DNA of 63,584 bases, counting the filler, from Perkinsus olseni (lineage: Eukaryota), in NCBI GenBank assembly GCA_013115125.1. It is 6 parts of 6 records of this genome, joined end to end, with 100 filler letters (N's around TTAATTAATTAA, not from the genome) between each part and the next. Parts side by side here need not be neighbours in the genome. Positions count along the whole stretch, not along the records: positions 11,837 to 23,568 come from JABANN010000818.1; 5 more parts are not named here. One strand, written 5' to 3'. The translations under genes and the position numbers were made by a program. The notes beneath the pieces were generated by a model. The model searched no databases. It had not been told where the DNA came from and saw nothing but the letters and a program-made list of their open reading frames with translations. Below are positions 1-63,584 of the stretch, piece after piece. The stretch's first letter is position 1. Each line of letters begins with the position of its first letter.

Positions 1-67
1 ACCCGGGCATCGATCCCGGTGCCTCTCGCTTGCTAAGCGAGCGCTCTACCATTTGAGCTAGTCCCCC
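1..67 (-). tRNA. tRNA-Ala(AGC), 3' end cut by the window edge
   Basis: Reverse complement GGGGGACTAGCTCAAATGGTAGAGCGCTCGCTTAGCAAGCGAGAGGCACCGGGATCGATGCCCGGGT; anticodon arm CTCGC-TTAGCAA-GCGAG; identical to the full copy at 1479-1551. Confidence 0.95.
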
Positions 68-93
68 ACACACCAACCAACGCTTGTCCCCCT

Positions 94-231
94 GAGGAAA
101 GGTACGGCTGAGGCACCCCTCTACCCCCTGCCCAATGTTGGGTGTCGCAGAAAGGCACAGGCGAGTCCGACGCAATCCTACAGCATCAACATTGTTCAGG
201 GGGAGCGGGGCTTGCCTTGAACGCTTCCCTC
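94..231 (-). ncRNA. candidate structured RNA: ~140-nt hairpin between tRNA-Glu and tRNA-Ala (second copy 1578-1715)
   Basis: Nested stems GAGGGAAG/CUUUCCUC, AGGCA/UGCCU, CCCCCUG/CAGGGGG, CAAUGUUG/CAACAUUG and UGUAGGA/UUCUGCG; the G-U pairs form only on the minus (tRNA-sense) strand. Confidence 0.45.
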
Positions 232-274
232 GAGTGATCCCATCGCTACCCGACCCAGGATAAATGCTCTTACT

Positions 275-11736: not shown

Positions 11737-11836
11737 NNNNNNNNNNNNNNNNNNNNNNNNNNNNNNNNNNNNNNNNNNNNTTAATTAATTAANNNNNNNN
11801 NNNNNNNNNNNNNNNNNNNNNNNNNNNNNNNNNNNN
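11737..11836. other. artificial contig linker (N-TTAATTAATTAA-N); also at 23569-23668, 35399-35498, 47228-47327 and 59024-59123
   Basis: Identical 100-nt spacers with a six-frame stop motif; enclosed contigs are 11732, 11730, 11729 and 11696 bp. Confidence 0.97.
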
Positions 11837-12187
11837 TGCAGGGCTCTGCCACGACTTACAATAAGTACCCCACTTCGAGTCCTTGCAACCGTCGATACCA
11901 TTGCAAACACCCTCGCATGTAGTCACCGGATATTCAGCACATTGGACAGGCTCCAATACCGAGTCGTCACAATCGGTAGCGTCGCTTCCGGGCTGATAGC
12001 ACTTCGATTCACCCTTGTGGTAGAGGCCAAAGCAGAGCCCGTTGTCTTTACAGTATGACTGATCACAGCCAGCGGTCTGAGTGCACATCTCCTCGCAGTA
12101 GTCACCGGTAGGCATGGTGTCTTCCGAAACTGAGGTACCGAAGCCGACAACAACCTCGAAGATCACTGCAGCAAGAGCGACGCGCAT
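11837..12187 (-). CDS. secreted cysteine-rich repeat protein, truncated by the gap
   Basis: Signal peptide MRVALAAVIFEVVVG, then a repeated C-x3-C...GC...(S/T)YCK module (CFGLY follows in the complete first copy). Confidence 0.75.
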
Positions 12188-13569
12188 AGGAGATGCCGGA
12201 AAGAATACAAGAAACTGCGGAGTCAAACTCGAAATTCTTGATTGAAATTCAAACTGATATCTCACAATCTATCACATTGACAGAGCCACCAAGTGAAGCA
12301 CTAGCCAGACCACGCTAGACTAGCTTGCATGACTTCATTCACACAGTGTTTCACAAAGCACGTCTCTCGCAAACGATCGACAGATGGTACACAACAAGCT
12401 TATTGAGTATTCATGCCCTCAATGGATTGCACAGATCGAATCGAACCTAAGTCGTGGTCTACGACTCGTAGAGATGCTACCAGCTCTCAGTCACTACTTC
12501 ATCGATGAATTCAGCACGGGATGGTAGATCGAATGCAGGAGGAGGCTACATAAGTGGCACTGGCTACAAAAAGATGGTATGTCACAACAGTACATTAACT
12601 CAATTTCATTTCGTTGTTGCTTTCATTGCAATGATGACTCACGACTACGCGCGCTCCGTTACCCTTGAGTGGTTGCAGAGTTGTGCAACCCACTTTCCGA
12701 GCATCTTCGAGCCGCAACTCGAGTGAATAGTGGAGATGAATTCGACAGTAGTAAGTCTCATGAAACACGACGCAACGGAGTCCCAATCGAGCTTCATTGC
12801 GATCATGGTCGCACCGACATCATACTTATCGAAAATTGAGTTCAGCACGTCAAATAACGAGCATGCAGCCGCCCATCACTTGAGTGGCTGAAGCTATTTA
12901 AGGGCTGAGTAACTGGCCGAAGGGGATGAATCACCTGCATGGGTAGGCAACCCCAAGCATTGACTTTGCTTCGGGTTCAGCATTGACATTGACTTGCTTG
13001 GTTTCTCAAGCATTGACCCCCCTCCGTGCTCTGCACTAGGATGACTCAGCAAAAAATGCTCGTAGTATTTTTCTTCCATACGCCGGTGATGATTCAGAGC
13101 CGTCATGAATAGCACTTTCATCAAGTGGAACCGTTTGACAGCACCATAATTCGCGCTTCCCATGAGGGCGTTCTGGAGTCTCTCACCATCTCATAGCTGA
13201 TGTTGATCTTTGTATTGACCAACAAAGGTTGCCTCAAGACGGTGATTAGAAGCATACACGTAAGAGGAACAAATCAACCTCATTCAGATACGAGCGATAC
13301 ACAGTTCGTCGATGGTGTTGAAATACTGATAAGATTAGCTCGAAAAAAGATCACACACAAATAATAATGAGACTCGTGGCTAACTACGTGGCGATGGTAA
13401 CAAGCAAATCAACTTCATTTCCCCACTACACCACCCTATCATGGAATCCACAACAACGCAATGTCAGTGCGGAACTGCATACATGCGTGGTGAATTCGTT
13501 AAGAGTCTGGAATCATTCAACAAACACCCGTAGAACAAACAATCATACAAGCACCGTAAAGTCCGGGGT

Positions 13570-16500
13570 TCACGGTGTGGCTGCAAGAAAAGGTTGCCGA
13601 AGCAATCCAGAGCAAGTGGCTCGTTCCGAAGGCTCATACTTCAGGCACGCGGAAAGAAACTCAATGAGCTGAGGAGATGCACTTTCGGGAGAGGGAACTG
13701 TTTTCGAGCTGAGGATCTTGTAGATGGCCATAACCGGATTCTCAAGTTTCCCTGGCATAGAGCACTGAGACAGCAAGCAGCTCTCCCTACCCCATGGATG
13801 AGTTCCTGTGGCCATTTCAATGACTACGATACCGAAGCTCCAAATATCTGCTGAAATTGAGTAGCCCTTACTGTCCTGAGCGAATCAAGTAGCAAACATG
13901 GATTTGCAACGATCTACAGATGTAGACGAACTCACCCCGGCGGAGATGACCTCGGGGGCCATCCAAGGGATCGAGCCAGAGAGCTGTGTCATAACAACGC
14001 CTACGAGCGAGAATGTCAATGATGGTAACACACTCGGAGTCCTACTTGAACCGATCTGGCGACTCGAACCGAAATCGCCGAGCTTGACAGTACCGTAGGC
14101 ATCAAGCAGCAAATTGTCACACTTGAGATCACGATGAGAGACCTAAATGATTCTGTTCATTCAGACTTGCTCCGAAAAATCTTACGGATCTCTTGTGAAG
14201 ATACTCCAAGCCAGAGAGGATCTGCACCGAGTAGCTGGCTATCTGAGGCTCTTCAAAGGAGCCGAAATCACTGAGGGCCGATTTTACGCTACCGCCCGAC
14301 ATGTATTCGGTGAAGACCTGCAAATGATGCGAGGTGATGGCGAAGCGATAGAATGGTCCATTACAAGAAGCCGCCCCATGGTGCACCGATGCTGGAGGAG
14401 TCTTTGATGCATAGCTGGGTCCCGCGGCAAAGGATCCCATTCAACGTTTGGAGGTATGAACTCGTGGCCGATATATCTGTCCAAACGGTTGTCTGCAGCG
14501 AGGCTGAGCTGGTCTCATAGACGCCCCACCGGATGATGTTCGGATGCTCCAACTGTTGCAAGATGTCCATCTCATTGGCCAACTGCTTGGCTGCAACTTC
14601 ACTCGCCTTGTCGCCGTCCTCGTACGAGACAACCTTGACGGCTATGAACTCGCCTGCAGAGACCATTCTGGGCTAAGGATGTAGAAAGGGAGGTCACCAG
14701 TTTGTTTGCACTTGGCCTTGAAGACATCACCGAAACTGCCGCTACCAATCAGGTTGCCAAAATCAACATCCGCCGATGCCAACGCTGAACGAGGTTAACG
14801 GGAATACGTTACATCACGGACGAAAAGCTTACTTTCAGGGAGAGGAGTATGAGCCTCAATGAAACATGCTGCCTGAAAGAAATCTACTAGAGCTTTGACG
14901 GTGGCTAGTGGAGAGCCCAACCCTGCTATTCCGCCTAGGCCTGGAGGATGATGATGATCCTGGTTCAATCAGTGAACCCCTAGCATCGATGAGATCACAG
15001 CAAGCAGCACACTACCAAGCCTACCTTCTCGGGCGGGGAAAAGACTCGGACTTCGCAGGGCTCCCGCTGACTGTAGCAGCAGCGCAACCATTCGATTCGC
15101 CATTATTGGCCTCGCTAGCGATCACGGGACTCTTGGACGTGGTAGATACCTCAGCCGTGGGGTCAGCAACTTCATCACCATTCAAATCGTCCGTGACGAT
15201 AAGCCGCATCTGCGATGAGGATAATGCATAACGAGAAGTAGTATGCTGTACATTGCCGTTGGCCACGGAATCGGTTAGTCGTTGTAGAGCACCCGGTACA
15301 CGGCGACGAGGAGGTACGGGCTTGGAGAACAGGCTCGGGTTCCTTGACCCAAGCGATGTTGTGCCACCTAAGAAAACCAAACGAATGCAGCACTTCAAAA
15401 GAGAGGGAATTGAACAATGAGATTTGAGGTTGAACGAAAGACCCTTCATCCTGCCAACCTGTGAAGCTCCTGGTTCGCCCGAGGGGGAAGAGCTGGCCAT
15501 CTTCATCATCTCCGGGGAAATCCGCAGCCGATGAAGACGCCGAGAAACATCGAGAGCGGTTCTGAAAGAGGGACGAGTGAACAGAAGAATGCGTCGGGTG
15601 AGCGGGTCATCGACCATTTTCACCATCAGCTTACATATTCGGTGTAAGACCTATTCCGCGTGCCTCCGACCCAGGACGCTCGTCTTTGGCCATCAGGACC
15701 TGATTGGGTTCCTGTTTCACTCGCTATACCAACCATCACTTACTTATAGGTGGTCTCACGCCTAAATATGCTGAACGACTGAGAGATCCTCGACGGCTAC
15801 AACCTCTACTGCCACTGGTGGAGCATGCACCAGCACTGTTGACGCGTTGGGGTGGACCAGGCATGCTAGAGGCCATCACGTGGCCCACTGCTTCGGCCGC
15901 CTCGAACTGATCGAGGCGAGCAACGTAGTTCGAAAGCACCCACCACCGCACGGATGATTACAAAATCTTGCAGAGTTACACCGCGACCAGGACCTAATCG
16001 TTCACCCTCAGTCACACTCTTCATCATCGAACCCACTATTTGTTGGAAAGAAAAGAAAACCGGAAACTCAACCTGAAACGAGTATCACCCAGCGACACTG
16101 GCGGCTCTCCCACCACTGTGCTGAGGGATTCTGATCCGGTCGGGGATGGTACCTGAGAGCCATCAATTCGGTGGATAGATGGGGTAGTTGCTGAAGCTAT
16201 TACAGTCTTGTTCTTCCCGCACGACGACGCAGACGTGCGATCGTTGTTCAGGTCGTGAAGGAATGGGGGAGGGGATCTACTGAATAGCTGAGCACGAGTA
16301 CGAGGGACCAATAGATTAGCCTACTTAGTCGGGGATGATGATGATGAGGGTGAAGGTGAAGTAGATGACGACGACGTTGTCGAACTCCTTGAAGGATGCG
16401 AACCTCCGACGTCACCCGGATGGGGTATCGCAGGAGGAGATATCTGATAAATATTAAACAGGATGTACGTCTGAGTGGACCCTGTAATGGCTCACTTGTC

Positions 16501-17126
16501 CAAAAAGGAGAGACGGTCGTCGACCATCAATAAGAGTTGGCGATGTCAATCTGGGTCGAGGCCTACCGCGTGTAAGGCTCAACATCTGAAGCGGAAACAG
16601 TGATCAACAACAAGCTCTACAAGAGGCTCCAGCTGTGGATCCTACAGTTTCGCCATTCTTCAGAGGCGATTCAGGCCGACTCGCCGGAACTGGTTTAGAC
16701 CCACCGGACGGATCTGAAGATGGGGAAAATCGATTGAAGCGAGAGATGAATTTCTCACCTGGTAGGTCAAAATTTGTTACCAAATCTTTCCCACTAGGAG
16801 TATCACCAGCATTGGTTGAAGGAGTACCTGGTTCAACTTCTGAACGGATCGCGGACACTAGGCGACGGTCGTTACTCACCAGCACTGCGATCCGCAAAAT
16901 GGGGGGTGCCAGACTTGGCGTCCTCGGTGGATGCATAGGTGGTCTCCTCATAAGGGAAGCTGCCAGGGAGTGATTCAACAACCTTATAGGGCTTATTCAA
17001 GCTTGATGATTCAGCCGTTTCGGACACATTAGTGGGCGAGACAGCAACCATTATCTGACAACAAGGCGATAGTGCTACAAAGGGCAGCGGAGAACTGAGT
17101 GTTTCAGGGGGAAAGAAAGAAGACAA
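13570..17126 (-). CDS. STE11/MAP3K-like Ser/Thr kinase with long low-complexity N-terminus, multi-exon
   Basis: [59 protein letters not shown] and EMATGTHPW lie in 13570-14790; linkage of the upstream exons is less certain. Confidence 0.88.
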
Positions 17127-18009
17127 AGATTGTGTCGGGGATCATGCGCTGGTGCTAGCAGACCCAGCTTACTTTTAATTGATGTACAAGTGTTGATAGA
17201 AATTGTCGAAATCAAACGCCGTGAGTTGGATGTCTTCCGTTGGGGAGTCCGAAAACCTCCTTCAAGCGCAAACTTCAATCACGACTTCAAGCAGAGGGGG
17301 CAGTGGGCCTCGGCCTGGACAGCACCGACTTCGCAGTAGTAGAAACCAATAGAACTTCTGGTAGGCAAGAGCTCAAGCAAGATCAATACGATTGAGGGGA
17401 TCCGCAAGATTCACTTCGTGATGGGATTGTCCACAAGCGGGAACGAGGGCTTCTGCTGCCACGATTAAATCGAAGGCTGAGGACCAACTAAGCATGGAGG
17501 CACTTACAATCTGGTTCCGTGAAACCCTTGGGCCAAGGAATGATACATTTCCTCACCCTGAGGGCCAGTATTCTTTCACGTCCACATGTGGGGCGCGTGA
17601 CGCTAGGAGTAGCTATCGCCATATCGAACAGTGAACGCGAGAACCCCTCTTACGCCAGTTCAATCCGCGGGTCCGGGAACGGCTCAAAAAGCCGCGCGAA
17701 CTACGATTAACTTCTAGGAAAAGACCTAACCGTCTCGTCGGTTCGTCCGAAGAGTTAACTCGCACGCAACACTCCAATCAGAAAGGATGTTCACTGAAGA
17801 ACTTTGAAGTAGAGCCGTAAACGAGATCCTCTCGATGCTACAATGGCTGGCAACTCTGTCTTCATGTCCAGTCGACTGCGGAACAACAGTGCCTGAGGTC
17901 AAGCCACAATGCATTACAGAATGCACGCCACATCTGTCGGTGCGGAAAGGACGGCAAACTCAGAAAAACGGAGTCGGCAAACTCATCTTGCCAGAGGAAT
18001 ACTGTGCTC

Positions 18010-18591
18010 GGAATAATTTGAAACTGTCGGTAAATATCTGAATCGTCAGTCAGACTGCACGAAAATTGAGTAAACCTGGCAAGTTGCGTTGGGGTCGGCT
18101 TGCCCTTGGATGAGAGCTCGGCCTTGGGTAACTGCCTGGCCTTGGTAGGCAGCCTTCGCTTGGATAACAGTTCGGGTTTTTGGTTGCCCTGTCGGGTTTC
18201 GGGTGGGGTTTCGGGCTTCCCTTTCTCCGCTCTCACCCGCAGTCATTTATTTTTTCTTAAGGCTGGCGGTTGAAGTTCGACTTGCAGTTGGGGTTTAACT
18301 CATTGTTAGGGTTCCTCTCGGGGTTCAGTTTTACAGTAAAACTTTTACTTGGGGGAAAATCCAGTTAGCACTCACTTAGTAAGCTCTACTTCAAAAATTG
18401 AAGATCAAGTCACTTCCTGCGTTCCGATAGATAGAAGCCCGACAAAACTCGTCGAGGTCATTTCAAACTTCGAAGCTCAAAGTTTGAAGTTCAAACTGCC
18501 TTGGACGCAGCTGCTCTTCTGTACAACAAGTGCAGTTTTCATGCAATCTTACTGACGATTCAGATATTTACTGATACTTTCAGTCAGAGCC
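18010..18591. mobile_element. non-autonomous Mutator-like DNA transposon (MITE), 582 bp
   Basis: Imperfect ~50-bp TIRs (18019-18068 and 18533-18582, core GTAAATATCTGAATCGTCAGT); GG...CC termini; perfect 10-bp TSD TACTGTGCTC at 18000-18009 and 18592-18601. Confidence 0.85.
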
Positions 18592-20123
18592 TACTGTGCT
18601 CTCTGAAGGACTCCTCATTTAGAAAACCGCTCAACGGAGAGACACCAAAAAACTCTCCGAGGACACACTAGAAAAGCCGGGGACTTTAAGCCGTGTGCTT
18701 TGTTATGGAGCTTTATGAAATACACGCAATCAAACTAGTTTCATCGGTCGCAGTCGGCTAAACATTTCAATTCCGCAGAATATCGGGCGTGCGCGAATCA
18801 AACAGCGCAGAATCGCACTCGGTGCGCGGCTTTCCAAAGGTAGCGGAAAGTCGCGTGCGCCCAGACTAGGCGCAAACCTTGGACTAGTTGAAACGACTAG
18901 ATTTCTGAAACGGTCCGGTTGAACTACTCGCCTGATTAGTATTAGAAGTTAGATCGAAGTTGGTTCACAGTTGGTCCGTTGGTTCAACGTTCGTTGGTTC
19001 CACTAGTCGGTCGGAGAGAACTACTAGTGTTCCTACGGTGGACTACTTATTGTCTGCAATAGACTTAGTACTAGTGACTATTTGAGGTGATTACTAGTCA
19101 TTTGAGCCACTACTCTTAGGACCTAGGCTACTATCGCTCAACGTATGACTTCCGATTGTGATGCTCGGATTGAGTTCCACTAGTGATCGGTTGGCATTCG
19201 AGACTAGTGATTTGGTGGCTTGTTCCGGATTCGGTTCTCTCGCGGATCCATCTCGGCAGCGCTTGCGACACAGCACTACTCCTCTCTCACTACTCTACCG
19301 TCGCTGCCTGCCGACCCGCGCATTCTACCGGGATATGATGCCTACTGCCGACTACTTCTATGCTCCACTACCGAGTTATGACTGGTCTTCTATGGGTCCT
19401 CTCTGTTACCACGAGCCCGAGCTTGATCACCTTATGCCTGTGCTAACTACCAGCTCCAAGAAGGCCACATCAACTACGTCAACTCAACTTCATCCTCGGT
19501 GCATGGACATCCACTACAAGTCGGCCTGACTCCCTGTGTGGTCTACAGTCATGTGCACTAGCTACGCACTACGACTGTAGTCACAGACGACACGGTGGAC
19601 ATGATGGCGGGGAAACCTGCCGTGTAGTCCACTACTCCACTACAACCACGATACGGTGTCCTTCTGAGCGCTCAGGAGGCATCACGGAGTCAGGGGCATT
19701 CATATCCTACTACGCCAATTATGAGCCTACCTTACACCCACTACTAGAGTATGACTGACGGGTCTGCTCTTGTCATTATTACTACTACGACCTTATCGCG
19801 AAGGGTTGTGACAGGTCATCTAGCAGAAGAAGTATTGAGGAAGCCTGAACTACTCGCAGACTGCTAGACTCGCGCCTACTTGTCCTACTACTACGAGTCT
19901 GGTTGCAACACAGGTTTCCAACTGTTCTTGACGACAGTGGGCTACCCTCAGCATTCTTGCTCAGGAGACTGACCACTACGACTTGGGAGGTATAGTGACA
20001 CCTCTATTATCAACAAGACGTGAGCACTATGACACCATCCTGCACTACCTGCCTTCAACGGTGATGTCACACTGCCAGGTGGAGGTGACTAGCCGTTGGT
20101 AGAAGGATATTTATGACCTCTAC

Positions 20124-20819
20124 TACTCGGAGGCGCTTGGTGTTGCGCCTGTTCTTGGTTTTGACTCTGGGTACTATGTCATCTATATCACGTCAAGTTC
20201 TGCTGCACTAGTAGCGTCCCAGACCTTGGTATTGGCTGTGGACGTAGTTCTTGGTTTTGACACTAGTGCGGCTGTGGTTTTACTTCTCTGCACCATCTAA
20301 CTAGTCACGTCCGAGTCCTTGGTGATTGGCAGCGGACGTTCGTCCTTGGTTTTTGGCGACTAGTCTGATGGCTCTTAACGCCTTACTAGTCACGCTCTCG
20401 TCCTTGGTTTTGGCTACGAGCGTTAGTCCTTGGTTTTGGCGACTAGTCTGGTGACTACTGATATCTCTTCAGTTACATTCCCGTCCTTGGTTATTTGGCT
20501 TTGAGCGAGAGTGCTTGGGTTTGGCTACTAACTAGATATCAGGCATCGGTACAACACCATTCTACTACTGATGTACTTCCTCGACTATCGGTGACGTTTC
20601 CGTTCTTGGTATTTGATAGCGAACGTTAGTTCTTGGTTTTGACTACCGGTATGTTGGGCTTCGACTAGGCTATGTGATGGGACGCTACATCGTGGTCGAG
20701 ATATCTGATTTATCTTGATGGTCCTACTACGAATCCACGACACCCCCACTAGCCTTTCGGAGATATACTCTTGGCCTTGGTTTTTGGCCTGGCCCAGTTC
20801 TTGGTAATTGACAGAGGCC
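20124..20819 (+). ncRNA. array of seven double-hairpin RNA motifs with CUUGG(U) loops
   Basis: Each unit has a closing stem and two hairpins; stem sequences differ between units but stay paired while the loop sequence is conserved. Confidence 0.75.
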
Positions 20820-21255
20820 CCCAGTTCACTATACTATTCACAGTCCACTATGTTATACTATATGGTACCATTTATGTTCATATTCACTATCACTTGGCTG
20901 ACTATTTCGAGAAGAGAAGTGACAGCTGAGATGATTTAGCATTAAGTTGATGTAGATAACCACTATTGTTTGAGGTCTGGCACGTGAAGTTTCCACTAGT
21001 GACTAATCAATTAATCACATTCACAACAAGCCAGGTACTAAGGGTACGTAAACACTGGGGAGAGCCCAGGTGGCAGTCAATGCCTACCCTTGGGTCACTA
21101 GTGAGCTATCTGTTGCTGGCCCTCACTAGTGATTCCGAAAACTTTCGGAGACGTCGCCGGTTACTAGCGCCCGAGGCAAAGGGACCTTCGCTACGCCAAT
21201 AGGTGAACTCCCACTACGACGGCCAGGTTATTAATTTTATGTTCAGCACAGCGAA

Positions 21256-21559
21256 AACCTGACTAGAAGTGGTACTAGTCAGTTGTTGCAGCCTCTGCGA
21301 ACTTGTTCGCACACTGCAATACTACCGAGGTTGTGAATCTGGCTCGTAGCCGGCGCTACTAGTCAGTCACTATCAGTGAAGGCCCTTTCCCGATCTGATA
21401 GTGCTGATGAGCTTGCAAATCTGTTTAGTAGCCGGCGCTACTAGACAGTCATGGTTGGATTACCAACTATGCTGTTGAGCTTGCAAATCTAACTTGTGGT
21501 TTCACTACTTGTTAGTCACTACTTGGCCGGACCCATGCCTGTAGTGCTATTTAAAATCT
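21256..21559 (+). ncRNA. array of four structured units, each ending in AATCT, upstream of the gag ATG
   Basis: Short hairpin, then a YAG-T-[stem]-CTR bulged hairpin; TCAG/CTGA versus ACAG/CTGT compensatory change. Confidence 0.65.
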
Positions 21560-21709
21560 GGTGAGTGCGTAAAACCACGATCCAGTCACCTGCGGACTAG
21601 GCCTTGGTCTTATCCCTGGTGCTACTACTTTCTATGGTTTCTCTACCATCTCCTTGTTGCGTAAAGGGATTGCAGAACGACCTTATCAGCGACTTCCTGT
21701 GTCTACACT

Positions 21710-23503
21710 ATGGACTACTCTCGTCACGCTGACCCCCAGAACAATCCCAACCTTCGCCTTGGAGATGGTTTGACCCCACTACAAGGCGGACTACAGGAGC
21801 AGCAAGGTGAACAACGCCCGCCACCTGCTGGTGGCGACCCTACTATTGACGACGTTGTTGTTCACCCCCCACTAGTCCTTCCCACTAATGCTACTAGTGG
21901 AAGGCAACCGCCTACTCTCCGCACTACCGAGGACGACGCCGATGGCAGCCGAACTAGTCGTGGTCTACCTCCTCCACTACGCCAACCTAATCTGTCTGCT
22001 GCCCAACACCACTCAGTTCCTCAGGGACTACACATCGAGAACGTTGGGGGGAATCCTACATCGGTGCCTCCACTAAGGATTAACGCTCCTGCTCCATTAC
22101 ATGGTGTCGTGCCTACTACACGCGGTGATGGTGATATGGCTTTGGCTGACGAGTGGCCGAGGAACATATACCAACGTGGCCAACATCCGGTGCCCACTGA
22201 TCACCGAGCTCAGCTACTACCACCACCTCCACCGCACTATGGACCACCACACTACATACAATCGGATATCAACAACGGCTACCGTGCATCTAATGCCCCT
22301 CAGCCTTCTCCATCATACTATGTGCCTGGACGCCCACTACAGCATCCATCTGACCAAGTTCATCATCAACCCCACGGGCAACAATACTACTATCCTGTGG
22401 AGTATGAACTGAGCAATAACTATCCGAGATCCCCTTCCAGGGAGCCCACTAAGCATCAACCATACCAACGTGGCCAACCTCAACTACTCCAGGATCATGC
22501 CAACTACATGTATCCACAGCCTGGTGTACCCCCACATCACGCTGAAGGCTATCCCCCGGTTGGACCACTACAACCTGCAGTGTCCCCAAGCCCCTTCTAC
22601 GTTCCGCGTAAGAGGGGAATGGCCCACTACGGTTGGTGCGAGGGATGCAGCAACTACGCTTGTTCTGCCCCCGTCTCCATCAAGGACTACGACTCGGCGG
22701 AGCGTGTGGTCGATAGTCTTAAGCCTAGGACTATCTTCAAGGGTTGTGAAGACAACCGCTCCGGTACTAGTTTCATTGAAACTATGTACACGGAAACGGA
22801 AGGTCATCCAGATGTCGTACGATATTTGTGGCTTAAGCGCTACACTACTTCGTACGTGTGGAGTGTCCTGACTGATGGGATACAACCTCCCACTAGGTGC
22901 CACCGTTCTTACGCCCGCCAACTACAACAACTACTTGAACGGCTGAGGTATCACTACGACACTCTCGGCCATGTTCAACGCACTAGTGATGATCTGGCCC
23001 ACTGTGTTCAAGAAGGTGGTACCGTCTACAAGTTCATATAGAGATTGGAGACTATGGCCTCTGAACTATATGCTCTCGGCTCCCCTGTTCCATATCGTGA
23101 TCTCAAACTAAGACTCCACAAGGGTCTGAGATCTATGCTACTACGACAGAGACTAGACGTGGACCTCATGAACGACGACATGTCTTTTGAGCAGTTCAGA
23201 GACCGTGTCTTACTCCATCACAAGCAGCTGACCAACTACTATGGCGTCGATTATGAGACTAAGGATGCGACTAAGTCTTCGGCTCCTTATTATCCCAAGG
23301 GTCAAGGTCGGCCTAATCAGTTTAGACCTAGGGACTCATCGATCGAGTCCCGTGGTAGACGGGTTTCCCACACTGACTACACACCGAGGAGCTCGACTAG
23401 TCCTCAGAGGTCTCGCCCACAACAAGCTCGATCTGTCAACTTTGTCGACGGAGACGAGCTCTATGACGATGACTACTCGATACAACATCTACTAGCCATC
23501 TAG
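21710..23503 (+). CDS. retrotransposon Gag-like protein interrupted by one in-frame TAG at 23039-23041
   Basis: Pro/Gln/His-rich N-terminus, then LAHCVQEGGTVYKFI*RLETMASEL...RLHKGLRSMLLRQRL, resembling the retrotransposon gag capsid pattern; both ORFs share one frame. Confidence 0.7.
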
Positions 23504-24625
23504 CCACACTCGCAGCAAAGCCGCTAGACGTGCGATCTCGAGTTAGACATTCATTGTGTTGCGATGCANNNNNNNNNNNNNNNNNNNNNNNNNNNNNNNN
23601 NNNNNNNNNNNNTTAATTAATTAANNNNNNNNNNNNNNNNNNNNNNNNNNNNNNNNNNNNNNNNNNNNGTCTGTCACTGCGCAAGTGGTGGTCAGACAAG
23701 AGAGCCAGCCTGGGCACTTCTGTCAAGGACTTCTTTTACTGTGCTTCACACGCTCGTCTGTGGATCCGCGGAGAAGTCACGACAGCTAGCAGTGCCGTTG
23801 TATTCGGAAGAGCCCCAACCCCAGCCTATCTCCATAGTGTGGAGTAGTCGACTCGCCAGAGTGTGACTGTGGGGCGCCAGCAGGGAACACTAGGCACTAC
23901 CTCCTCTCCTGTCCGCTCTTAGAGCAGGTTAGGAAGAGGGTTAAGGGTGGTGTCCCCTACCATTTATATAAACTAATTGTTGATTTGAAGCGACGCAAGT
24001 CCTTCAATCAACTCTGTTCGGCCCTCATGCAGTATCTCGATGCTCGCAGGGGCTTATTGTAGTGCCGGGCAGGCACTTTTTTTTCCGCCTCTGTTTCGTA
24101 CGAGGCTCACCATTGAGTATTTGCTATCACAAAGGAAATAAAAAAATAAATAGCAGCAGCTGGAGCAAGCGTCGGAGGACTGGCGACTGGGACGGTGACC
24201 GCGAGGATGGAGGAAGATGCAGATGAAGTCGGTCGAAGCCTTAGAGCAGGAAGACGTGATGGCTAATTCATGTATTGCTTGTTATTAAGGAACGTTTCAA
24301 TCTGGAGGGAGGCAGAGTTGCCCAGCCCCCCGGGTAAGGTGGGCTCTTGCCATCTTGCCTTTCTTCGAGCGGTTCGGTATATTTCCGCTACTATTTTGTT
24401 ATTTCCCAAGGTAGACGGGACTGCGACCGGAGGCTGTCAGGGTCGGGTGGAAGGTGTTGATGAGAACGACTGTAGTTTTCTGTTTCTATTAGACGATCGA
24501 GTCCTTTCCCGCGCGCCACGAAGTTGAATCGATACTAGCCTACTACTGCAGAGCCGCAATGCTCTGCTACTGCGTCTACGGACTGTGGGTAAGCGGCCAC
24601 GGAGAAGGGAGATCTCCTACTACGA

Positions 24626-35300: not shown

Positions 35301-35498
35301 TCAAGTGACGGGACATGCCGCACTACATAAAACGCGCGGACCTTCGCCCGCCTCGATCGGCAAAACCGTGGGAGAGTGATCGGAGGTCGGAGCGATACNN
35401 NNNNNNNNNNNNNNNNNNNNNNNNNNNNNNNNNNNNNNNNNNTTAATTAATTAANNNNNNNNNNNNNNNNNNNNNNNNNNNNNNNNNNNNNNNNNNNN

Positions 35499-47015: not shown

Positions 47016-48319
47016 GGACTCTCGCAGCCGCTTCGTGCGTCTGACCCACCCTTGTTTCCATGTTCACTACTGTCATCTGCAGAACCCGTCTAGGGCTTCA
47101 AGCCGAGCATTTCTGGCGCACTAGCGCTTCTTTCTTTCAGTATAAAGGCAGCGTTGTCACAGTGTGATGACTACGTGCAACTTGCAAGACTCTGACGGTT
47201 TCAAGATACCGTCTCTGCACCACTGACNNNNNNNNNNNNNNNNNNNNNNNNNNNNNNNNNNNNNNNNNNNNTTAATTAATTAANNNNNNNNNNNNNNNNN
47301 NNNNNNNNNNNNNNNNNNNNNNNNNNNACAGATTTCAAGATCGGACCATTACCCGGAGCCCTATAGGTTACAGAGATGTTGATATGTTTGAGTTCTCGAA
47401 CCCATGATTGATTCTGGTCGAGTTGTAGCGTCTCAGTTGACTGCCTTCTCACTACAGTTGATATGTTTGATATCTGTAGGAATTGCTTTGTATTCACCGC
47501 ACGCGCGTCACATGGTGCGTCAATTGGTCGAATTGGGCTGAGAACTCTGCGGCAGAGTCTCAGCCGGTCGAGAACTTCAACCTGGAGTTATGAAGGGCAC
47601 TCAAGCCGAGGTGACACAGGCAATTACTGAACTTCACCGCAGTGGAGGTTGTGTCCCACGCATTGAGTGGGTCGATCGACCCCGCTATTTCAAGGCTGTG
47701 TGAGCCTCACACTGCGAGGCTTTGCAAAATTTGCTATGCAAATCCTTTCCTTCCAACGTTGTGATGAATGTTGCTGGAAACTTAATTTGAGTCACGGGAC
47801 CTTGAGAGTGACAGATTCAAGTTGAATCATTCAACTCTCTGGCCAGGCCAGACTTGCCCTGGAGCCGTCTCAGACGAACCGTCTGTATGTTCGGGAGCTG
47901 CTTCCACCGTTAGCTTCATTGAGTGGAGAAAAAATTCTGGGGTTGCGTATTCTTCAGAGAAATTTCCTCTTGCAGTGTTACCTCTCCCAATAATATGGTA
48001 CGATTGAACATCAATTCAGAGACAGGAAATGACAATTACGCGGTAATAGTTGGTGAGATCTTCATAAAACATGATCGATAGGTCGGGTAGGCGAGTCGAC
48101 CATGAACAGTCTGACATCCCGCAAACCATCGTAGAATAGTAATTCCAGTTCGTAACTGAAATATTACTGTGAGGACTGTGCTCGACTTCTTGTACTTTGG
48201 TCCAAAGTTGCTTGTTAATTGAACTTTTGGTGAAGTCGAGAACGCTTTGAGGCTTATGGCTTTGTTTCGGCGGAAAACGGCGATAGCGAGAGCTCGGTGC
48301 CCCTTGGGGTTTGGGAGAA

Positions 48320-59023: not shown

Positions 59024-59123
59024 NNNNNNNNNNNNNNNNNNNNNNNNNNNNNNNNNNNNNNNNNNNNTTAATTAATTAANNNNNNNNNNNNNNNNNNNNN
59101 NNNNNNNNNNNNNNNNNNNNNNN

Positions 59124-62100
59124 ATAGTAATTATAGTGTTAATATATAGTTTAAATAATATAATATATCCATAATATACTGATTACTATCTCCATGCTGC
59201 CGCTATAATATAAATAGGTTATATACATATTGCAAGGTATACTATTAACTATATCTATAATACCATATATTAAGGATTAGTAAATATTAATAAAATATAT
59301 ATCATATATACCCATGTGCATAGGTTTATTAATTATATTACTATATCTATATTATATTAGCACATGGGGTATTATTAAATATATATTAATAACATATAGT
59401 TAGATTATCTCTATAGTATATATATAGCCATTAGGTATAAATATCTATCATATGGTTAATATACATATATATCTGTATATTATTATCATGAATATATAAT
59501 GTATTATCTATATTCTATTAAATAAGTATATATTTTTATCTATTAATAACCTCTATATAATATTATAATAACTACTATTAATAAAGATCTGTATTTATAT
59601 ATATATTTAACCATATATTTATTGGTATAATAATATACCTTATACTCTATAGATATACTATTAGTGATATTTATATATATATAATTAAGGATATTATACT
59701 CACTATTAATATTTATATCTAATATTTTGGTATTACTTATATACACCTTATTATACCAACTAGTAATCTTATTTAATGATATTATATTACTATGGAGACT
59801 ATTATTAACTAGTATTTATTAGGTATTATTTTATACTAACTACTATATTATATCATTATACTATATATTATCTCCATAGACTTACATGTTATTATACTCT
59901 ATAGGGATGAAATTATATTATATACTACTATTTTATTAATACACAACATCATTTATACCCAATATTAGGTATTATTAAATATATTATAGATTTATATATA
60001 ACTTATTATATTATCTTATATTTATATTATATTATATATGTATGGTAATTATGGCTATCTTTATATTATATTAAGTATATCTATATTATATATCTTATAA
60101 ATATATGTACTATCTATATGGTATAATATTAATAAAGATATAATATTAAATAAAGGTATATGGTATAATTATAATATTAATAACCCATACATTATTATAT
60201 ATAGATTTATAGTTAATAGTTTAATAAGTTAATATTATATATATATGTATTATTACTATATTATAAATATCTTATGTTAATATCCATGTAATACTATATT
60301 ATAATAAATAATATCAGAGTGCCTATATAAATATAATATTATGATAGTATATAAAGTATTAAATAATAATAAACCAATATATATTATATCATCTAGAGGA
60401 CCATGTATATTATATTCTATTATTATATATATTACTAACTAGTATTAATATTAATCATAATAGATATATACCCTCTTTTAACCCTATAGATTTATACTAT
60501 CATATATACTTAGTTAGATATAAATATTACTATATATACACTATAGATTTATAATAGATTACCTATTAATATTAGATTATTTATATATATACATTGAGGA
60601 TATCTTATAATATGGAGATTAGCCCCTGGTTATAAATATAGATATAATATGGTATATAATATAATATAGTGCCCAATGCTATAATAAATTAATATATATA
60701 AATAGTGCATTGGGCTATAAATATAAATATAATATATATTAGTAAATAATAGTATTAATATGAATATTTATAAAGAAGTATATATTAGAATATTATATGT
60801 AATATAAATGAAAGTATAATAAATATTAGTATAATATATATAAGAATTATTTCTATTAATAATAAATAGATTATCATATTATAAGCTATCTTAATATATA
60901 ATTATTATATAATTACGGTATTGATATATTATGACATAGAGATATTTATTAATAGAGAATATAGATATATGAATATAATAAATATATAGTAATATCGGGT
61001 ATAAATATAATATAACGATATCTAATAGTAACCGTATTTATAACGATCATGATATTGTAGTTTACCATAGATATATATAATATTGATTAAATTATTAATA
61101 GTGTTATATTGTTATTTATCATATGATATTATATACAATACTATGATATTATATAAGATTAAATATGGTATAAATCTAGTTATAATATTAGTATATTTAT
61201 TATTATAAAGAGGGCCTAGTATTAAATATATATATTACAATATAAATATCTAGGGTATAATATATGTATTATAACTATGGAGATATGATATGGTATAATA
61301 TATTCTAGTAATATATATATAATAAGTTAACCATATAATAATAGATAGTCTATATTAGATTATAATAAATATACATAGATATCCATGGGTCATTAACATA
61401 TTAAAGTATATATTCTTATTATAATATAGACCCATGGTATAAATATATATAATTCTATCATTATAATTAGTATAAGTTAACATATAATCTATAGTATATC
61501 CCAGGTATATATAATATTGTATGGTGGGGTAATATCATAATATAATATAATAGATTAAAGATACATATATAATATATTAGAATTAGATAGGTAATATAAT
61601 ATCCTTATTGATAGTGCCCTGTAATATATTATCATACTAATAATAATGTCCATATCTATATAATTATAATTAAGGCATTATATTATTATCTATCGATATT
61701 AACGAGTTTATGATATTATTTCAATCTATTATATTTTATTATAAATTATATTAATAATGGTATATATTAATATCTATCAATATCATACCTTAGTAAATAC
61801 CACAATATAGTATATGTTATAATATGATCTATAATATGCATAAACTATATAATTATAATATTATCATATATGTACTGTGATCATTAGTTATTATTTATAT
61901 TATTATATTTATTTATATTAGATCACAGTACTTTATATCCATATATAATATAATACCCTACTTTATGGCCCTCTATCTATAAATATAGGATATATAATAT
62001 AATTACTTTATGCACCTCATCCATATAATTATTAATAAATTATGAGGTGCTATATGATATGATAATAATATTTATATTAATAGATTACTGATAAATATAT

Positions 62101-63584
62101 ATAATTATATATAGTGTTGGTTATCATAAAATAATATATATTAGGTATATTTACCTATAGTAATAAATCTATAATATAATAAATAGGCATATTAAATTAC
62201 ATATAATCAATAAGTATACCATTATATATATAAATATAATATGATAGATAAAGGTAGGTATATATAGTTAATATAATATATTATTGGGATATATATCTTT
62301 ATTAATCTAGTTAGTAATACTATATATATAATTACTTTATATTACTTTATATTTATAATAGATATTACTTTATACTAACTATTATATACTAACTATTAAT
62401 ATATGTATATAAATAGTATCTAATATATAATTAAGGTTTTATCTATCTATAATATATAGTTATACTTAATTAATAATATAATATTTATTATTAGTTTATC
62501 TATGGGGTTTATATTACTATTTATACTATGGAGTGTATATTATTATAAGTTAATGATATATTTAATAGTTAGTTTATGATATCTTTAATAGGACCTAGTA
62601 TTACTTAATATATATTTATAGATAATTAACTATCTCTTTAGATTACCTTTATATAATATATATTATTAAATATTACCTTAATATCATAATATGGAATTTA
62701 ACACCTTAAATATATAGATGGATAAAATATAATAATAACGACTATAATAAGATATAATATATTTACTAATCTATGGTTATTCCTATTACTATATCAATAT
62801 TATGGGGTTTATATGATAATTATATAATATTAAGTATATATTAATAAGGGGATTAATAATGTAATATATATATAAATAACTATACTTTACTATAAATATA
62901 TATATACCAGCCATACACTATTATTATATTATATTAACTTATCAATAATGGCTGGTATTAACATATCATAACATAATATTATTCTATAGGATATCTATTA
63001 TAAATATCTTAACTATATTAATCTAATACAATACCTAATATATATATATATAAACCATTATATAGTAATATTATATTATAGGTCTCCATAGTATATACTA
63101 TAGTTAATAATGTAATAATATGGTAATAATACAATAAAATAGATATATTTATAATTATATGCCCTATAGATATTGATATGGTAAGTTAATATATAATAAT
63201 AAATACATATACTAGATATCTTAATATTAGGGTATATATATTATAATATAATAAAGTCCTTAACATATATATTACCTTATATTGATATACTAATACTTTA
63301 TATTGATATTAATATAATAATTATATATAGATATAGTTAATAGTATACCTTAATAATAATATAGTAATTATGTAATATTAGGTATTAGATGGGCATTTAT
63401 ATATATAATACTATACCTTTAGATAAACTATTATAATATTATTAAATTATTAGTAAAAGATAAGATATATGGCATATAAATATAAATAGTTTTAATTAAA
63501 TATATAAAGTATAATACCCTATAAATTACTTATTATTATATACTGTATACCATAATATTAGATATTAAATTATATAGGTATTTA
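59124..63584. other. extremely AT-rich contig, probable mitochondrial DNA
   Basis: Roughly 80% A+T by eye versus about 50% elsewhere; no long ORF; many short GC-rich inverted repeats. No cox1, cox3, cob or rRNA fragment could be recognised. Confidence 0.7.

What the first reader, a model, noticed from the sequence alone, without database searches (positions are those of the whole stretch)
21256..21559. Second, different array of four structured units just upstream of the gag start
Seen: units at about 21256-21340, 21341-21422, 21423-21490 and 21491-21559, ending TTGTGAATCT, TTGCAAATCT, TTGCAAATCT and TTAAAATCT. Each has a small hairpin (GTAGC-CGGC-GCTAC in two units), then a hairpin with a bulged T: AG-T-TGTTGCAG/CTGCAATA-CT, TCAG-T-CACTATCAG/CTGATAGTG-CTGA, ACAG-T-CATGGTTGG/CCAACTATG-CTGT, TAG-T-CACTAC/GTAGTG-CTA. 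Closing stems are AACCT/AGGTT, GGCTC/GAGCT and GTTTA/TGAGC. Inference: 150 nt from the ATG and behind a long leader with many upstream AUGs, this could be an IRES-like or protein-binding module.
Basis: partly seen in the sequence, partly recalled or inferred. Interest (0 to 1): 0.75.

Follow-up and report, generated by a model that had tools for sequence, protein, structure and literature searches.

The report
Hairpin repeat array in retrotransposon leader
Just upstream of the coat-protein gene of a jumping gene in the shellfish parasite Perkinsus lie four tandem copies of a small RNA hairpin module whose stems differ between copies but always stay paired, which points to a working RNA signal, probably a handle by which the element's own RNA is recognised.

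Summary
21256-21559 is a head-to-tail array of four diverged units (85, 82, 68, 69 nt) in the leader of a broken, Perkinsus-specific BEL/Pao-like LTR retrotransposon, 150 nt before the gag ATG. Each unit has a long hairpin with one bulged T. All 32 of 32 upper-stem and 13 of 13 lower-stem positions pair. Eight of 9 upper-stem positions differ between units with pairing kept, while the flanks of units 2 and 3 are 21/22 and 18/19 identical.

The array folds far better than shuffles (z -5.1). G.U pairs mildly favour the sense strand. Contigs of another isolate carry at least five variants of this leader, one lacking exactly unit 3.

The only consensus splice donor in the 2.9-kb leader starts two bases after the array. 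Rfam, hammerhead, spliced-leader and tRNA readings failed.

Best reading (0.4): a multivalent sense-RNA signal of the full-length RNA, probably a Gag-binding packaging platform. An IRES is untested. The small hairpins and closing stems are weak in context.

A separate oddity is an even, sense-strand ACTA motif across the whole element, 11-fold enriched.

Earlier scan notes hold no look-alike.

The parts
18837..23500 (+). Fragment of a defective BEL/Pao-like LTR retrotransposon: long leader (with or without the LTR) plus gag. It is cut off at 23500 by an unrelated high-copy repeat and the contig end.
   Evidence: The left edge comes from contig record 13 of run X19, which matches 18837-19323 exactly and then diverges, and from the abrupt start of ACTA enrichment. 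gag homology ends at 23500. The LTR end and primer-binding site were not located.
21256..21340 (+). Unit 1. First hairpin CTGACTAG/CTAGTCAG (21259-21282). Long hairpin upper stem 21284-21291 / 21314-21321, with bulged T at 21283.
   Evidence: Pair probabilities 0.99 and 0.91.
21341..21422 (+). Unit 2. Small hairpin 21346-21359. Long hairpin lower stem 21363-21366 / 21404-21407, bulged T 21367, upper stem 21368-21376 / 21395-21403. Tail GAGCTTGCAAATCT.
   Evidence: Long hairpin pair probability 0.99, small hairpin 0.01.
21423..21490 (+). Unit 3. Small hairpin 21428-21441. Long hairpin lower stem 21445-21448 / 21472-21475, bulged T 21449, upper stem 21450-21458 / 21463-21471, loop ATTA. It is missing exactly in one diverged copy.
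   Evidence: Run X7 record 24 joins 21422 to 21504 through 12 letters that match the head of unit 4 (table 5c).
21491..21559 (+). Unit 4, the most diverged. Weak first hairpin 21496-21508. Long hairpin lower stem 21513-21515 / 21547-21549, bulged T 21516, upper stem 21517-21522 / 21541-21546.
   Evidence: Not favoured in the context fold (0.00-0.16).
21561..21675 (+). Putative 115-nt intron, or the 3' end of an outron. GTGAGT donor at 21561; pyrimidine tract and TTGCAG acceptor at 21670-21675. The 34 nt that follow, up to the ATG, hold no ATG.
   Evidence: Sequence only. It is the only GT[AG]AGT in 18837-21712 and the only YYNYAG in 21561-21712. No read evidence for or against.
21710..23500 (+). 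gag ORF with an in-frame TAG at 23039-23041, aligned to R in both homologues. Only residues from about 296 on are conserved.
20990..21255 (+). Structured leader segment upstream of the array, holding two copies of the 10-nt palindrome TCACTAGTGA (21095-21104, 21123-21132) that pair with each other in the MFE fold.
   Evidence: z -2.05; z -3.1 and -2.2 for windows starting at 21000 and 21075.
20207..20530 (+). The other ('first') tandem array of the leader, period about 85-93 nt, not notably structured.
   Evidence: Windows starting at 20175-20400 give z -1.4 to +0.6.

Best explanation
The stretch is a tandem array of four old, diverged copies of a 68-85-nt RNA module in the 5' leader of a Perkinsus-specific BEL/Pao-like LTR retrotransposon. 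This particular copy is defective.

The module acts in the sense-strand RNA. It consists of a conserved head (..ACUAG-N-CAGU), a long hairpin with one bulged U whose stem sequence is free but must pair, and a conserved single-stranded tail (UGAGCUUGCAAAUCU).

I propose that the array is a cis-acting signal of the full-length (genomic) RNA. Most likely it is a multivalent binding platform for the element's own Gag, whose intact relatives carry three CCHC zinc knuckles. In that role it would mark the RNA for dimerisation and packaging, as the multi-hairpin Psi region does between primer-binding site and gag in retroviruses.

The array ends one base before a consensus 5' splice site, and a strong acceptor lies 34 nt before the gag AUG. 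RNA processed at that acceptor by the host spliced leader would lose the array and all upstream AUGs and serve as messenger. Unprocessed or cis-spliced RNA would keep the array.

Shown: the array, its pairing, covariation between units, conservation and unit-number variation in other copies, gag identity, and the splice-like signals.

Inferred: that it acts as RNA, that Gag is the ligand, and the division of labour between RNA forms.
For: (1) Pairing is far beyond chance: 32 of 32 and 13 of 13 stem cells pair, and the anchored-stem null gives 8-288 of 100000. The array has z -5.1.

(2) Covariation between units: 8 of 9 upper-stem positions vary with pairing kept. Between units 2 and 3 all 5 changed pairs changed on both sides, and 4 of them are transition pairs reachable through G.U. 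Their flanks are 21/22 and 18/19 identical while the stem arms are only 4/9 and 4/9 identical.

(3) Strand: G.U pairs occur on the sense strand with no A.C in the listed helices. The sense strand folds 8.7 kcal/mol better than the antisense strand.

(4) Other copies in run X7 (same organism label, another sample): at least five different contigs overlap the array, with depths 254, 158, 154, 134 and 21. Two of them are about 80% identical over 21168/21174-21415/21423. One aligns up to 21567 and resumes only at 22595, which is exactly where the conserved gag core begins. The leader is therefore alignable where the first 295 gag codons are not. Summed depth is 568-871 in the bins 20976-21533, against 134-183 in the bins 21534-23021.

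(5) Unit number varies. Record 24 lacks exactly unit 3. Its 12 bridging letters differ from the head of unit 4 at two places, one of which turns the G.U of the weak hairpin into A-U. Another contig skips 62 nt (21408-21469).

(6) Position and ligand. The array lies 150 nt before gag. Homologues P0003 and P0004 each carry three C-X2-C-X4-H-X4-C knuckles straight after the point where this copy breaks off.

(7) The only GT[AG]AGT of the 2.87-kb leader is at 21561, and the only YYNYAG before the ATG is at 21670-21675. The leader holds 36 ATGs.
Against: No binding, packaging or transcript data exist.

The primer-binding site and LTR end were not found, so 'between PBS and gag' is assumed.

Covariation rests on four paralogous units of one copy. 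The per-site table of differences from other copies was cut off before the array, so no cross-copy covariation test was possible beyond one substitution.

Stems that differ much more than their flanks could also mean that hairpins were replaced as blocks by a templated process rather than by stepwise compensatory change.

Both strands fold well (z -5.1 against -4.4), and the strand call rests on a handful of G.U pairs.

The loops share no motif. Unit 4, the small hairpins and the closing stems are not favoured in the context fold.

Other parts of the element are as structured or more so: gag 22640-23040 has z -6.0. The array is therefore not unique in the RNA.
Confidence: 0.4

Rival explanations
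1. Translation control. The structured array lets ribosomes reach the gag AUG despite a long leader with many upstream AUGs, either as an IRES or as the stable structure of a ribosome shunt, as in the pararetrovirus leaders I recall.
For: There are 36 ATGs in the 2.87-kb leader, 7 of them after 21054. Strong local structure ends 150 nt before the ATG.
Against: The transcription start is unknown, so the real leader may be short. The host caps mRNAs by spliced-leader addition (PMC3101222 and PMC2868825, passages). A good acceptor 34 nt before the ATG would remove every upstream AUG. Four AUGs lie inside the array itself. Neither repetition of a module nor unit-number variation is expected of an IRES.
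Confidence: 0.12
2. A DNA-level regulatory repeat. The units would be tandem binding sites for a transcription factor, enhancer or insulator protein in the proviral DNA, as reported for the 5'-UTR repeats of Drosophila ZAM and discussed for Tirant. The palindromes would then be incidental or be dimer binding sites.
For: 5'-UTR tandem repeats with variable number are known in LTR retroelements: ZAM 2.3 x 307 bp, Tirant 2-6 x 102 bp (PMC5408687, passages). Here the head and tail of the unit are sequence-conserved and the unit number varies. Both strands fold about equally.
Against: A sequence-specific DNA binder does not explain why the arms change in step. The palindromes differ in sequence at 8 of 9 positions yet never lose pairing, and they include G.T, which is tolerated in RNA but is a mismatch in a DNA cruciform.
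Confidence: 0.15
3. A splicing device. The array is the 3' end of a non-coding first exon, and its AAAUCUG|GUGAGU end works like a built-in leader exon. Cis-splicing to the acceptor at 21675 would compete with spliced-leader trans-splicing, keeping the 5' end that reverse transcription needs. The AAUCUGG tails would act as Sm-like sites, as in the Perkinsus SL exon.
For: The donor lies two bases after the array and is the only one in the leader. AATCT occurs 5 times in the element, 4 of them at unit ends. AATCTGG ends units 1 and 4. The candidate Sm site of the Perkinsus SL lies in the exon and reads AUCUGG / AUUCUGG (PMC3101222, passages). Earlier notes of this scan describe another Perkinsus LTR element with the SL built in before gag (e1-7243590, unchecked).
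Against: No SL within 3 mismatches is present anywhere in the window. The 9-mer and 7-mer matches to the SL at 21337 and 21345 are no more than the roughly 23 such 8-mers per strand seen across the window. Only 2 of 4 tails read AUCUGG. No read evidence for the intron was shown.
Confidence: 0.13
4. No function. The array would be a by-product of template switching during reverse transcription, which is thought to make hypervariable tandem repeats in retroelement UTRs, with hairpins created by snap-back copying.
For: Tandem repeats that vary in monomer and number are common in UTRs of plant Tat/Ogre elements and are ascribed to abnormal strand transfers (PMC7004042, passages). A second, unstructured array lies 700 nt upstream. 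Unit number varies. Stems differ more than flanks.
Against: The leader with units 1-2 is alignable at about 80% in variants whose adjacent gag N-terminus is not. All stems remain intact in a copy that is otherwise decayed, with an in-frame stop and a truncation. The imperfections in the stems are G.U only.
Confidence: 0.15

Closest known systems
5'-UTR tandem repeats of Drosophila LTR retroelements ZAM and Tirant (PMC5408687, passages read)
   Same: Head-to-tail repeats between the 5' LTR region and gag of an LTR retroelement. The number of units differs between copies. The role is partly unclear.
   Different: Those units are 102-307 bp and are discussed as DNA-level regulators of transcription or integration. 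No covarying hairpins are described in the passages I read. Here the units are 68-85 nt, each is built round a hairpin that covaries, and the host is an alveolate protist.
Retroviral and LTR-retrotransposon packaging/dimerisation leader (Psi, e.g. MLV and HIV-1 multi-hairpin leaders; recalled knowledge, not from a call)
   Same: Several hairpins just upstream of gag, next to the major splice donor, in an element whose Gag has CCHC zinc knuckles.
   Different: Psi regions are not tandem repeats of one module. Here the PBS was not located and no binding or packaging data exist. Membership is functional and could not be tested.
Hypervariable 3'-UTR tandem repeats of plant Tat/Ogre LTR retrotransposons (PMC7004042, passages read)
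   Same: Tandem repeats inside a retroelement UTR with variable monomers and numbers, probably made during replication.
   Different: They lie in the 3' UTR, in plants, and are regarded as structurally unconstrained and a source of satellites. Here the array is in the 5' leader and its helices are preserved.
Perkinsus spliced-leader RNA (PmaSL1/PmaSL2; PMC3101222, passages read)
   Same: A short exon with an AUCUGG-type candidate Sm site followed by a GU donor. AAUCUG|GUGAGU ends the array.
   Different: The 21/22-nt SL itself is absent. Only 2 of 4 units end in AUCUGG. The units are three to four times longer than the SL.
Hammerhead ribozyme repeats of retrozymes and Penelope-like elements (recalled knowledge)
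   Same: Tandem small structured RNAs tied to retroelements. Unit 2 has GUC, then a hairpin, then CUGAUGA in the right order.
   Different: CUGAUGA occurs in 1 of 4 units. There is no GAAA box and no helix III, and there is an extra base between helix I and the core. No Rfam hammerhead hit appears even at E 10. Not a member.

Membership tests
BEL/Pao (Semotivirus-like) LTR retrotransposon (the element that carries the array) | gag-pol polyprotein with Pao-type aspartic peptidase (Pfam PF05380), RT, RNase H and integrase | tested here: inconclusive
   This copy holds only gag, with no Pfam hit. Its gag core is 56-57% identical over 326-383 aligned residues to P0003 and P0004, which carry PF05380, and in P0003 also PF00077. 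The pol of this copy lies beyond the contig end.
BEL/Pao (Semotivirus-like) LTR retrotransposon (the element that carries the array) | Long terminal repeats, primer-binding site and polypurine tract | tested here: inconclusive
   Only the left part is in the contig. No second LTR is in the window. No PBS matched the two tRNAs of the window (7-8 mismatches of 18).
Retroelement UTR tandem repeats (ZAM/Tirant type) | Head-to-tail units in the untranslated region next to gag, with unit number varying between copies | tested here: met
   Four units lie at 21256-21559. Run X7 contigs lack unit 3 or skip 62 nt.
Packaging / dimerisation signal (Psi) | Bound by Gag/NC and needed for encapsidation of the genomic RNA | not testable with these tools
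   Only circumstantial: the position before gag, the hairpins, and CCHC knuckles in homologues.
IRES | Cap-independent internal initiation in a bicistronic test | not testable with these tools
   No computation can show it, and no Rfam IRES family matched.
Hammerhead ribozyme | Core CUGAUGA ... GAAA ... UH cleavage site joined by three helices | tested here: not met
   CUGAUGA occurs only in unit 2. Unit 3 has CUGUUGA. There is no GAAA after a helix II. No Rfam hit at E up to 10.
Any Rfam 15 family | Score at or above the family's gathering threshold | tested here: not met
   0 matches at E up to 1 in the contig. In 21000-21720 there were only Flavi_TBFV_SL6 at 19.1 bits (threshold 38.3) and mir-921 at 18.1 bits (threshold 80).
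Spliced leader or relict spliced leader | The 21/22-nt SL sequence (PmaSL1/2) | tested here: not met
   0 matches within 3 mismatches in the window. Only 9-nt and 7-nt pieces match, at chance frequency.
tRNA or tRNA-like | Cloverleaf found by ARAGORN | tested here: not met
   The only tRNAs in the window are at 275-347 and 1478-1552.

The most novel reading that the evidence does not exclude
The array is the high-affinity core of an element-wide RNA recognition code. The whole sense strand of this retrotransposon, coding and non-coding alike, carries an evenly spaced ACUA motif: one per 36 nt, 11-fold enriched, placed in all three frames against its own codon usage. The four hairpin modules, each holding 2-3 ACUA, would nucleate a dedicated RNA-binding protein, either the element's Gag or a host factor. 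That protein would then coat or mark the full-length RNA, setting it apart from host RNA or shielding it from spliced-leader trans-splicing at internal acceptors. This would be a new way for a retroelement to live in a trans-splicing host.
Probability: 0.15. Interest if true: 0.8.

Novelty: new variant of a known kind. Interest (0 to 1): 0.5.

Why it matters
Little is in print on how retroelements of perkinsids and dinoflagellates handle their RNA in a host that replaces mRNA 5' ends by trans-splicing. My searches found only passing mentions of Perkinsus retroelements.

A repeated hairpin module that covaries gives a concrete, small RNA target for binding and packaging tests in a genetically tractable parasite of commercial shellfish. 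It sits against a splice donor just before gag, in a Perkinsus-restricted element family.

The element-wide ACUA motif, if general, could be a marker for finding and classifying these elements. It could also point to an unknown RNA-binding activity.

If the array proves to be only a by-product of reverse transcription, it is still a clear case of UTR tandem repeats outside animals and plants.

Tried and rejected
(1) Own genome: none is held, so copies could not be collected from the assembly.

(2) Relatives of the gag core were sought in metagenome, viral and prokaryote genome contigs. There were 329, 73 and 33 pattern matches, and none was confirmed.

(3) A 17-mer from the small hairpin was scanned in metagenome contigs and gave 11 loci. 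All are chance matches of 17-28 nt. Two were read in full (L001, L011) and are copia-type RT coding sequence.

(4) Sequencing runs: no RNA holder is listed. Runs X12 and X19 are only guessed to be RNA. Their small contigs over 21064-21309 (identical) and 21088-21415 (83% identical) cannot show transcription, starts, ends or strand. Parts without cover in X11, X12 and X19 mean nothing.

The table of differing letters was cut before the array (418 rows not shown), as were 10 joints and 337 pieces.

(5) RNAalifold on a MAFFT alignment of the four units failed for the long hairpin, because unit 4 was misaligned. I counted pairs by coordinates instead.

(6) The hammerhead, HDV-like, tRNA-like, miRNA and SL-relict readings were rejected. 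The stems of 9+4 bp are short for a Dicer substrate; that judgement rests on my own knowledge.

(7) Long-range partner of the conserved tail: the best is 11 of 14 pairs including G.U, which is chance level.

(8) PBS search: no convincing site.

(10) Earlier scan notes hold nothing near, no look-alike by sequence and nothing by words.

Full report
Setting. The window is not one locus. It is six unplaced contigs of falling length (about 11.7 kb each, the last 4.5 kb) joined by linkers of 44 N, TTAATTAATTAA and 44 N. The finding lies in the second contig, 11837-23568. No whole genome is held.

The organism is a Perkinsus. The window's own gag protein has its best relative in a P. olseni entry. 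All 10 family representatives that I looked up, of 27 found among 1.84 billion representatives, are from P. olseni, P. marinus or P. chesapeaki. Earlier notes of this scan also call the genome P. olseni. Perkinsus adds a 21/22-nt spliced leader to mRNAs (PMC3101222 and PMC2868825, passages read).

The element. The ORF 21710-23041 (443 aa) has no Pfam hit. Read on through an in-frame TAG (23039-23041) to 23500, it is 56% identical over 383 aligned residues to residues 157-523 of a 1466-aa P. marinus protein. It is 57% identical over 326 residues to a 1580-aa P. chesapeaki protein. Both carry the Pao-type peptidase domain PF05380.

The TAG aligns with arginine in both. Only the part from residue 296 (22595) on is conserved. 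In the relatives three CCHC zinc knuckles follow directly after the motif HLLAI, which is where this copy breaks off.

At 23500 an unrelated high-copy repeat begins, and the contig ends at 23568. So this is the gag of a BEL/Pao-like LTR retrotransposon, in a defective and truncated copy.

Its left edge is at about 18837. A contig of run X19 matches 18837-19323 exactly and differs on both sides, and a striking motif bias starts there. I could not place the LTR end or the primer-binding site.

The observation.
- The four units are 85, 82, 68 and 69 nt long.
- A conserved head (GCTACTAGWCAGTCA, up to 3 mismatches) occurs at 21271, 21355, 21437 and 21504.
- A conserved tail (GAGCTTGCAAATCT) occurs at 21327, 21409 and 21477.
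- Neither occurs elsewhere in the element.

Each unit has a long hairpin made of a lower stem (..AG/CT..), one bulged T and an upper stem of 8, 9, 9 and 6 pairs.
- All 32 of 32 upper and 13 of 13 lower cells are standard pairs.
- Sliding the partner strand by 1-3 columns leaves 6-20 of 32.
- Shuffling each interior gives an anchored stem of the observed length in 17, 8, 24 and 288 of 100000 trials.

The array folds at -121.4 kcal/mol, z -5.1. In a rough scan of 18000-23474 (30 shuffles per window), four consecutive windows over the array have z -2.1 to -4.9. The leader from 19650 to 21000 lies between -1.6 and +2.2.

Covariation and strand. Counted from the bulge, 8 of 9 upper-stem positions show two or three pair types among the units, and none is broken.

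Units 2 and 3 are the clearest case.
- Their heads are 21/22 identical and their tails 18/19.
- Their stem arms are only 4/9 and 4/9 identical.
- All five changed pairs changed on both sides: C-G to U-A twice, A-U to G-C twice, and U-A to G.U.
- Unit 4 keeps the first six pairs of unit 2 with one double change (U-A to C-G).

The imperfections are G.U on the sense strand, in units 1 and 3 and in the weak first hairpin of unit 4. There is no A.C. The sense strand folds 8.7 kcal/mol better than the antisense strand (z -5.1 against -4.4). This favours a sense-strand RNA, but the strand evidence is thin.

What is weak. In a partition-function fold of 20950-21760 the long hairpins of units 1-3 and the first hairpin of unit 1 are robust (0.89-0.99). 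The small GUAGC hairpins (0.01, 0.10), the first hairpin of unit 4 (0.16), both stems of unit 4 (0.00) and all three closing stems (0.00) lose to other pairings.

Other copies. I laid contigs of four runs on 18000-23568 at 80% likeness. In X7 (same organism label, other sample) 213 contigs were laid, in all divergence classes.

At least five different contigs overlap the array, with depths 254, 158, 154, 134 and 21.
- Records 23 and 24 are about 80% identical over 21168/21174 to 21415/21423.
- Record 25 is 97.6% identical from 21370 to 23500.
- The contig of depth 158 skips 62 nt (21408-21469) and runs on to 21567. It resumes only at 22595, which is exactly the first conserved gag codon.
- Record 24 joins 21422 to 21504 through 12 letters that are the head of unit 4 with two changes. 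It therefore lacks exactly unit 3. One of its changes turns the G.U of the weak unit-4 hairpin into A-U.

Summed depth is 568-871 over 20976-21533 against 134-183 over 21534-23021. This reflects several diverged variants being alignable in the leader but not in the gag N-terminus. So the leader with the array is among the best-kept nucleotide stretches of the family, and the unit number varies.

The table of single differences was cut off before the array. A cross-copy covariation test was therefore not possible.

Surroundings.
- The only GT[AG]AGT in the 2.87-kb leader is GTGAGT at 21561, two bases after the last unit (CTG|GTGAGT).
- The only YYNYAG before the ATG is TTGCAG at 21670-21675, behind a pyrimidine tract.
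- The 34 nt from there to the ATG hold no ATG, whereas the leader holds 36.
- Upstream, 20990-21255 is also structured and holds two copies of the palindrome TCACTAGTGA that pair with each other.

A second feature of the whole element. ACTA occurs 131 times on the sense strand of 18837-23500. That is 11 times the density in the other contigs of the window (50,855 nt of them, excluding the AT-rich last one). Its complement occurs 37 times, 24 of them inside the palindrome ACTAGT.
- Spacing is more even than random: mean 36, coefficient of variation 0.66, largest gap 106.
- In gag it falls in all three frames (17, 16, 17).
- It exceeds what the ORF's own codon usage gives: 50 against 26.8 +/- 3.2, with a maximum of 36 in 2000 synonymous shuffles.
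- Leu is CTA in 21 of 49 codons and Thr is ACT in 23 of 32.
- Each unit of the array holds 2-3 of these motifs, and the stems of units 2 and 4 pair CACTA with TAGTG.

I have no tested explanation. It looks like selection on the RNA for a dispersed binding motif.

What it is not.
- No Rfam family matched.
- It is not a hammerhead. CUGAUGA occurs in unit 2 only, and there is no GAAA and no helix III.
- It is not a spliced leader or a relict of one.
- It is not a tRNA.
- It is not coding: no ORF of 70 aa or more covers it in either strand.

Mechanism. A module with a sequence-conserved head and tail, and a helix that only has to pair, is what a protein-recognised RNA element looks like. Four such modules stand in a row just before gag and next to the leader's splice donor, in an element whose Gag has zinc knuckles. 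That is most like a packaging or dimerisation region built by repetition.

I put 0.4 on this. The rivals are:
- a DNA-level regulatory repeat (0.15);
- a functionless product of template switching (0.15);
- a splicing device that keeps the leader in a trans-splicing host (0.13);
- translation control (0.12).

The general statement, that this is a selected sense-RNA structure, I hold at about 0.65.

Comparison and novelty. Tandem repeats in retroelement UTRs with variable unit number are known: ZAM and Tirant (PMC5408687, passages) and plant Tat/Ogre elements (PMC7004042, passages). Multi-hairpin leaders before gag are textbook for retroviruses (recalled).

I did not find an array of one covarying hairpin module described, nor one in a protist BEL/Pao-like element. 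My searches found nothing on Perkinsus retroelement leaders. These were four word searches of an open-access library, not proof of absence. I rate it a new variant of a known kind.

Noticed in passing
window 18837-23500, + strand: Element-wide sense-strand ACTA motif (context C-N-ACTA-[C/G]-T). There are 131 copies, 11-fold enriched, evenly spaced (mean 36 nt, largest gap 106). It falls in all three frames of gag and is far above synonymous-codon shuffles (50 against 26.8 +/- 3.2). Unexplained.
   Followed up: partly
window 22640-23040, + strand: The conserved gag core is very strongly structured as RNA (-147.1 kcal/mol, z -6.0, 0 of 100 shuffles), with several clean 6-10-bp hairpins. It is more structured than the array itself.
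   Followed up: partly
window 21561-21675: Consensus 5' splice site GTGAGT two bases after the array, and a pyrimidine tract plus TTGCAG acceptor 34 nt before the gag ATG. This is a possible leader intron or spliced-leader addition site. No read evidence was seen.
   Followed up: partly
window 21095-21104 and 21123-21132: Two copies of the perfect 10-nt palindrome TCACTAGTGA, 28 nt apart (start to start), in the structured leader upstream of the array. They are candidates for a dimerisation site.
   Followed up: no
window 11737-11836, 23569-23668, 35399-35498, 47228-47327, 59024-59123: The window is a chain of six unplaced contigs in order of falling length, joined by N44-TTAATTAATTAA-N44 linkers. 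Features must not be read across these joints.
   Followed up: yes
window 23500-23566: A short repeat at the contig end is held by all four runs laid (summed depth 4775 in X19). It continues in them with the same unseen sequence. It interrupts the gag at the HLLAI motif and probably broke the assembly.
   Followed up: partly
window 19335-20948: One X7 contig skips 1614 nt here (short side, 22 nt), and the X19 contig that matches 18837-19323 diverges after 19323. The leader seems to have a variable middle module, which includes the first tandem array at 20207-20530.
   Followed up: partly
window 59124-63584: The last contig has 16% G+C, unlike the roughly 50% of the others. It may be organellar or a different kind of repeat.
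   Followed up: no
window 1-234 and 1485-1718; 275-347; 1478-1552: A 234-nt direct repeat at 100% identity, 1484 nt apart, lies beside tRNA-Glu(TTC) and tRNA-Ala(AGC) genes on the minus strand.
   Followed up: no
window 23838-24062, + strand: A short ORF with a C-x-C ... H-x4-C motif (CDCGAPAGNTRHYLLSC) at the start of the third contig. To my recollection it resembles the C-terminal end of some non-LTR retrotransposon ORF2 proteins. It has no Pfam hit.
   Followed up: no
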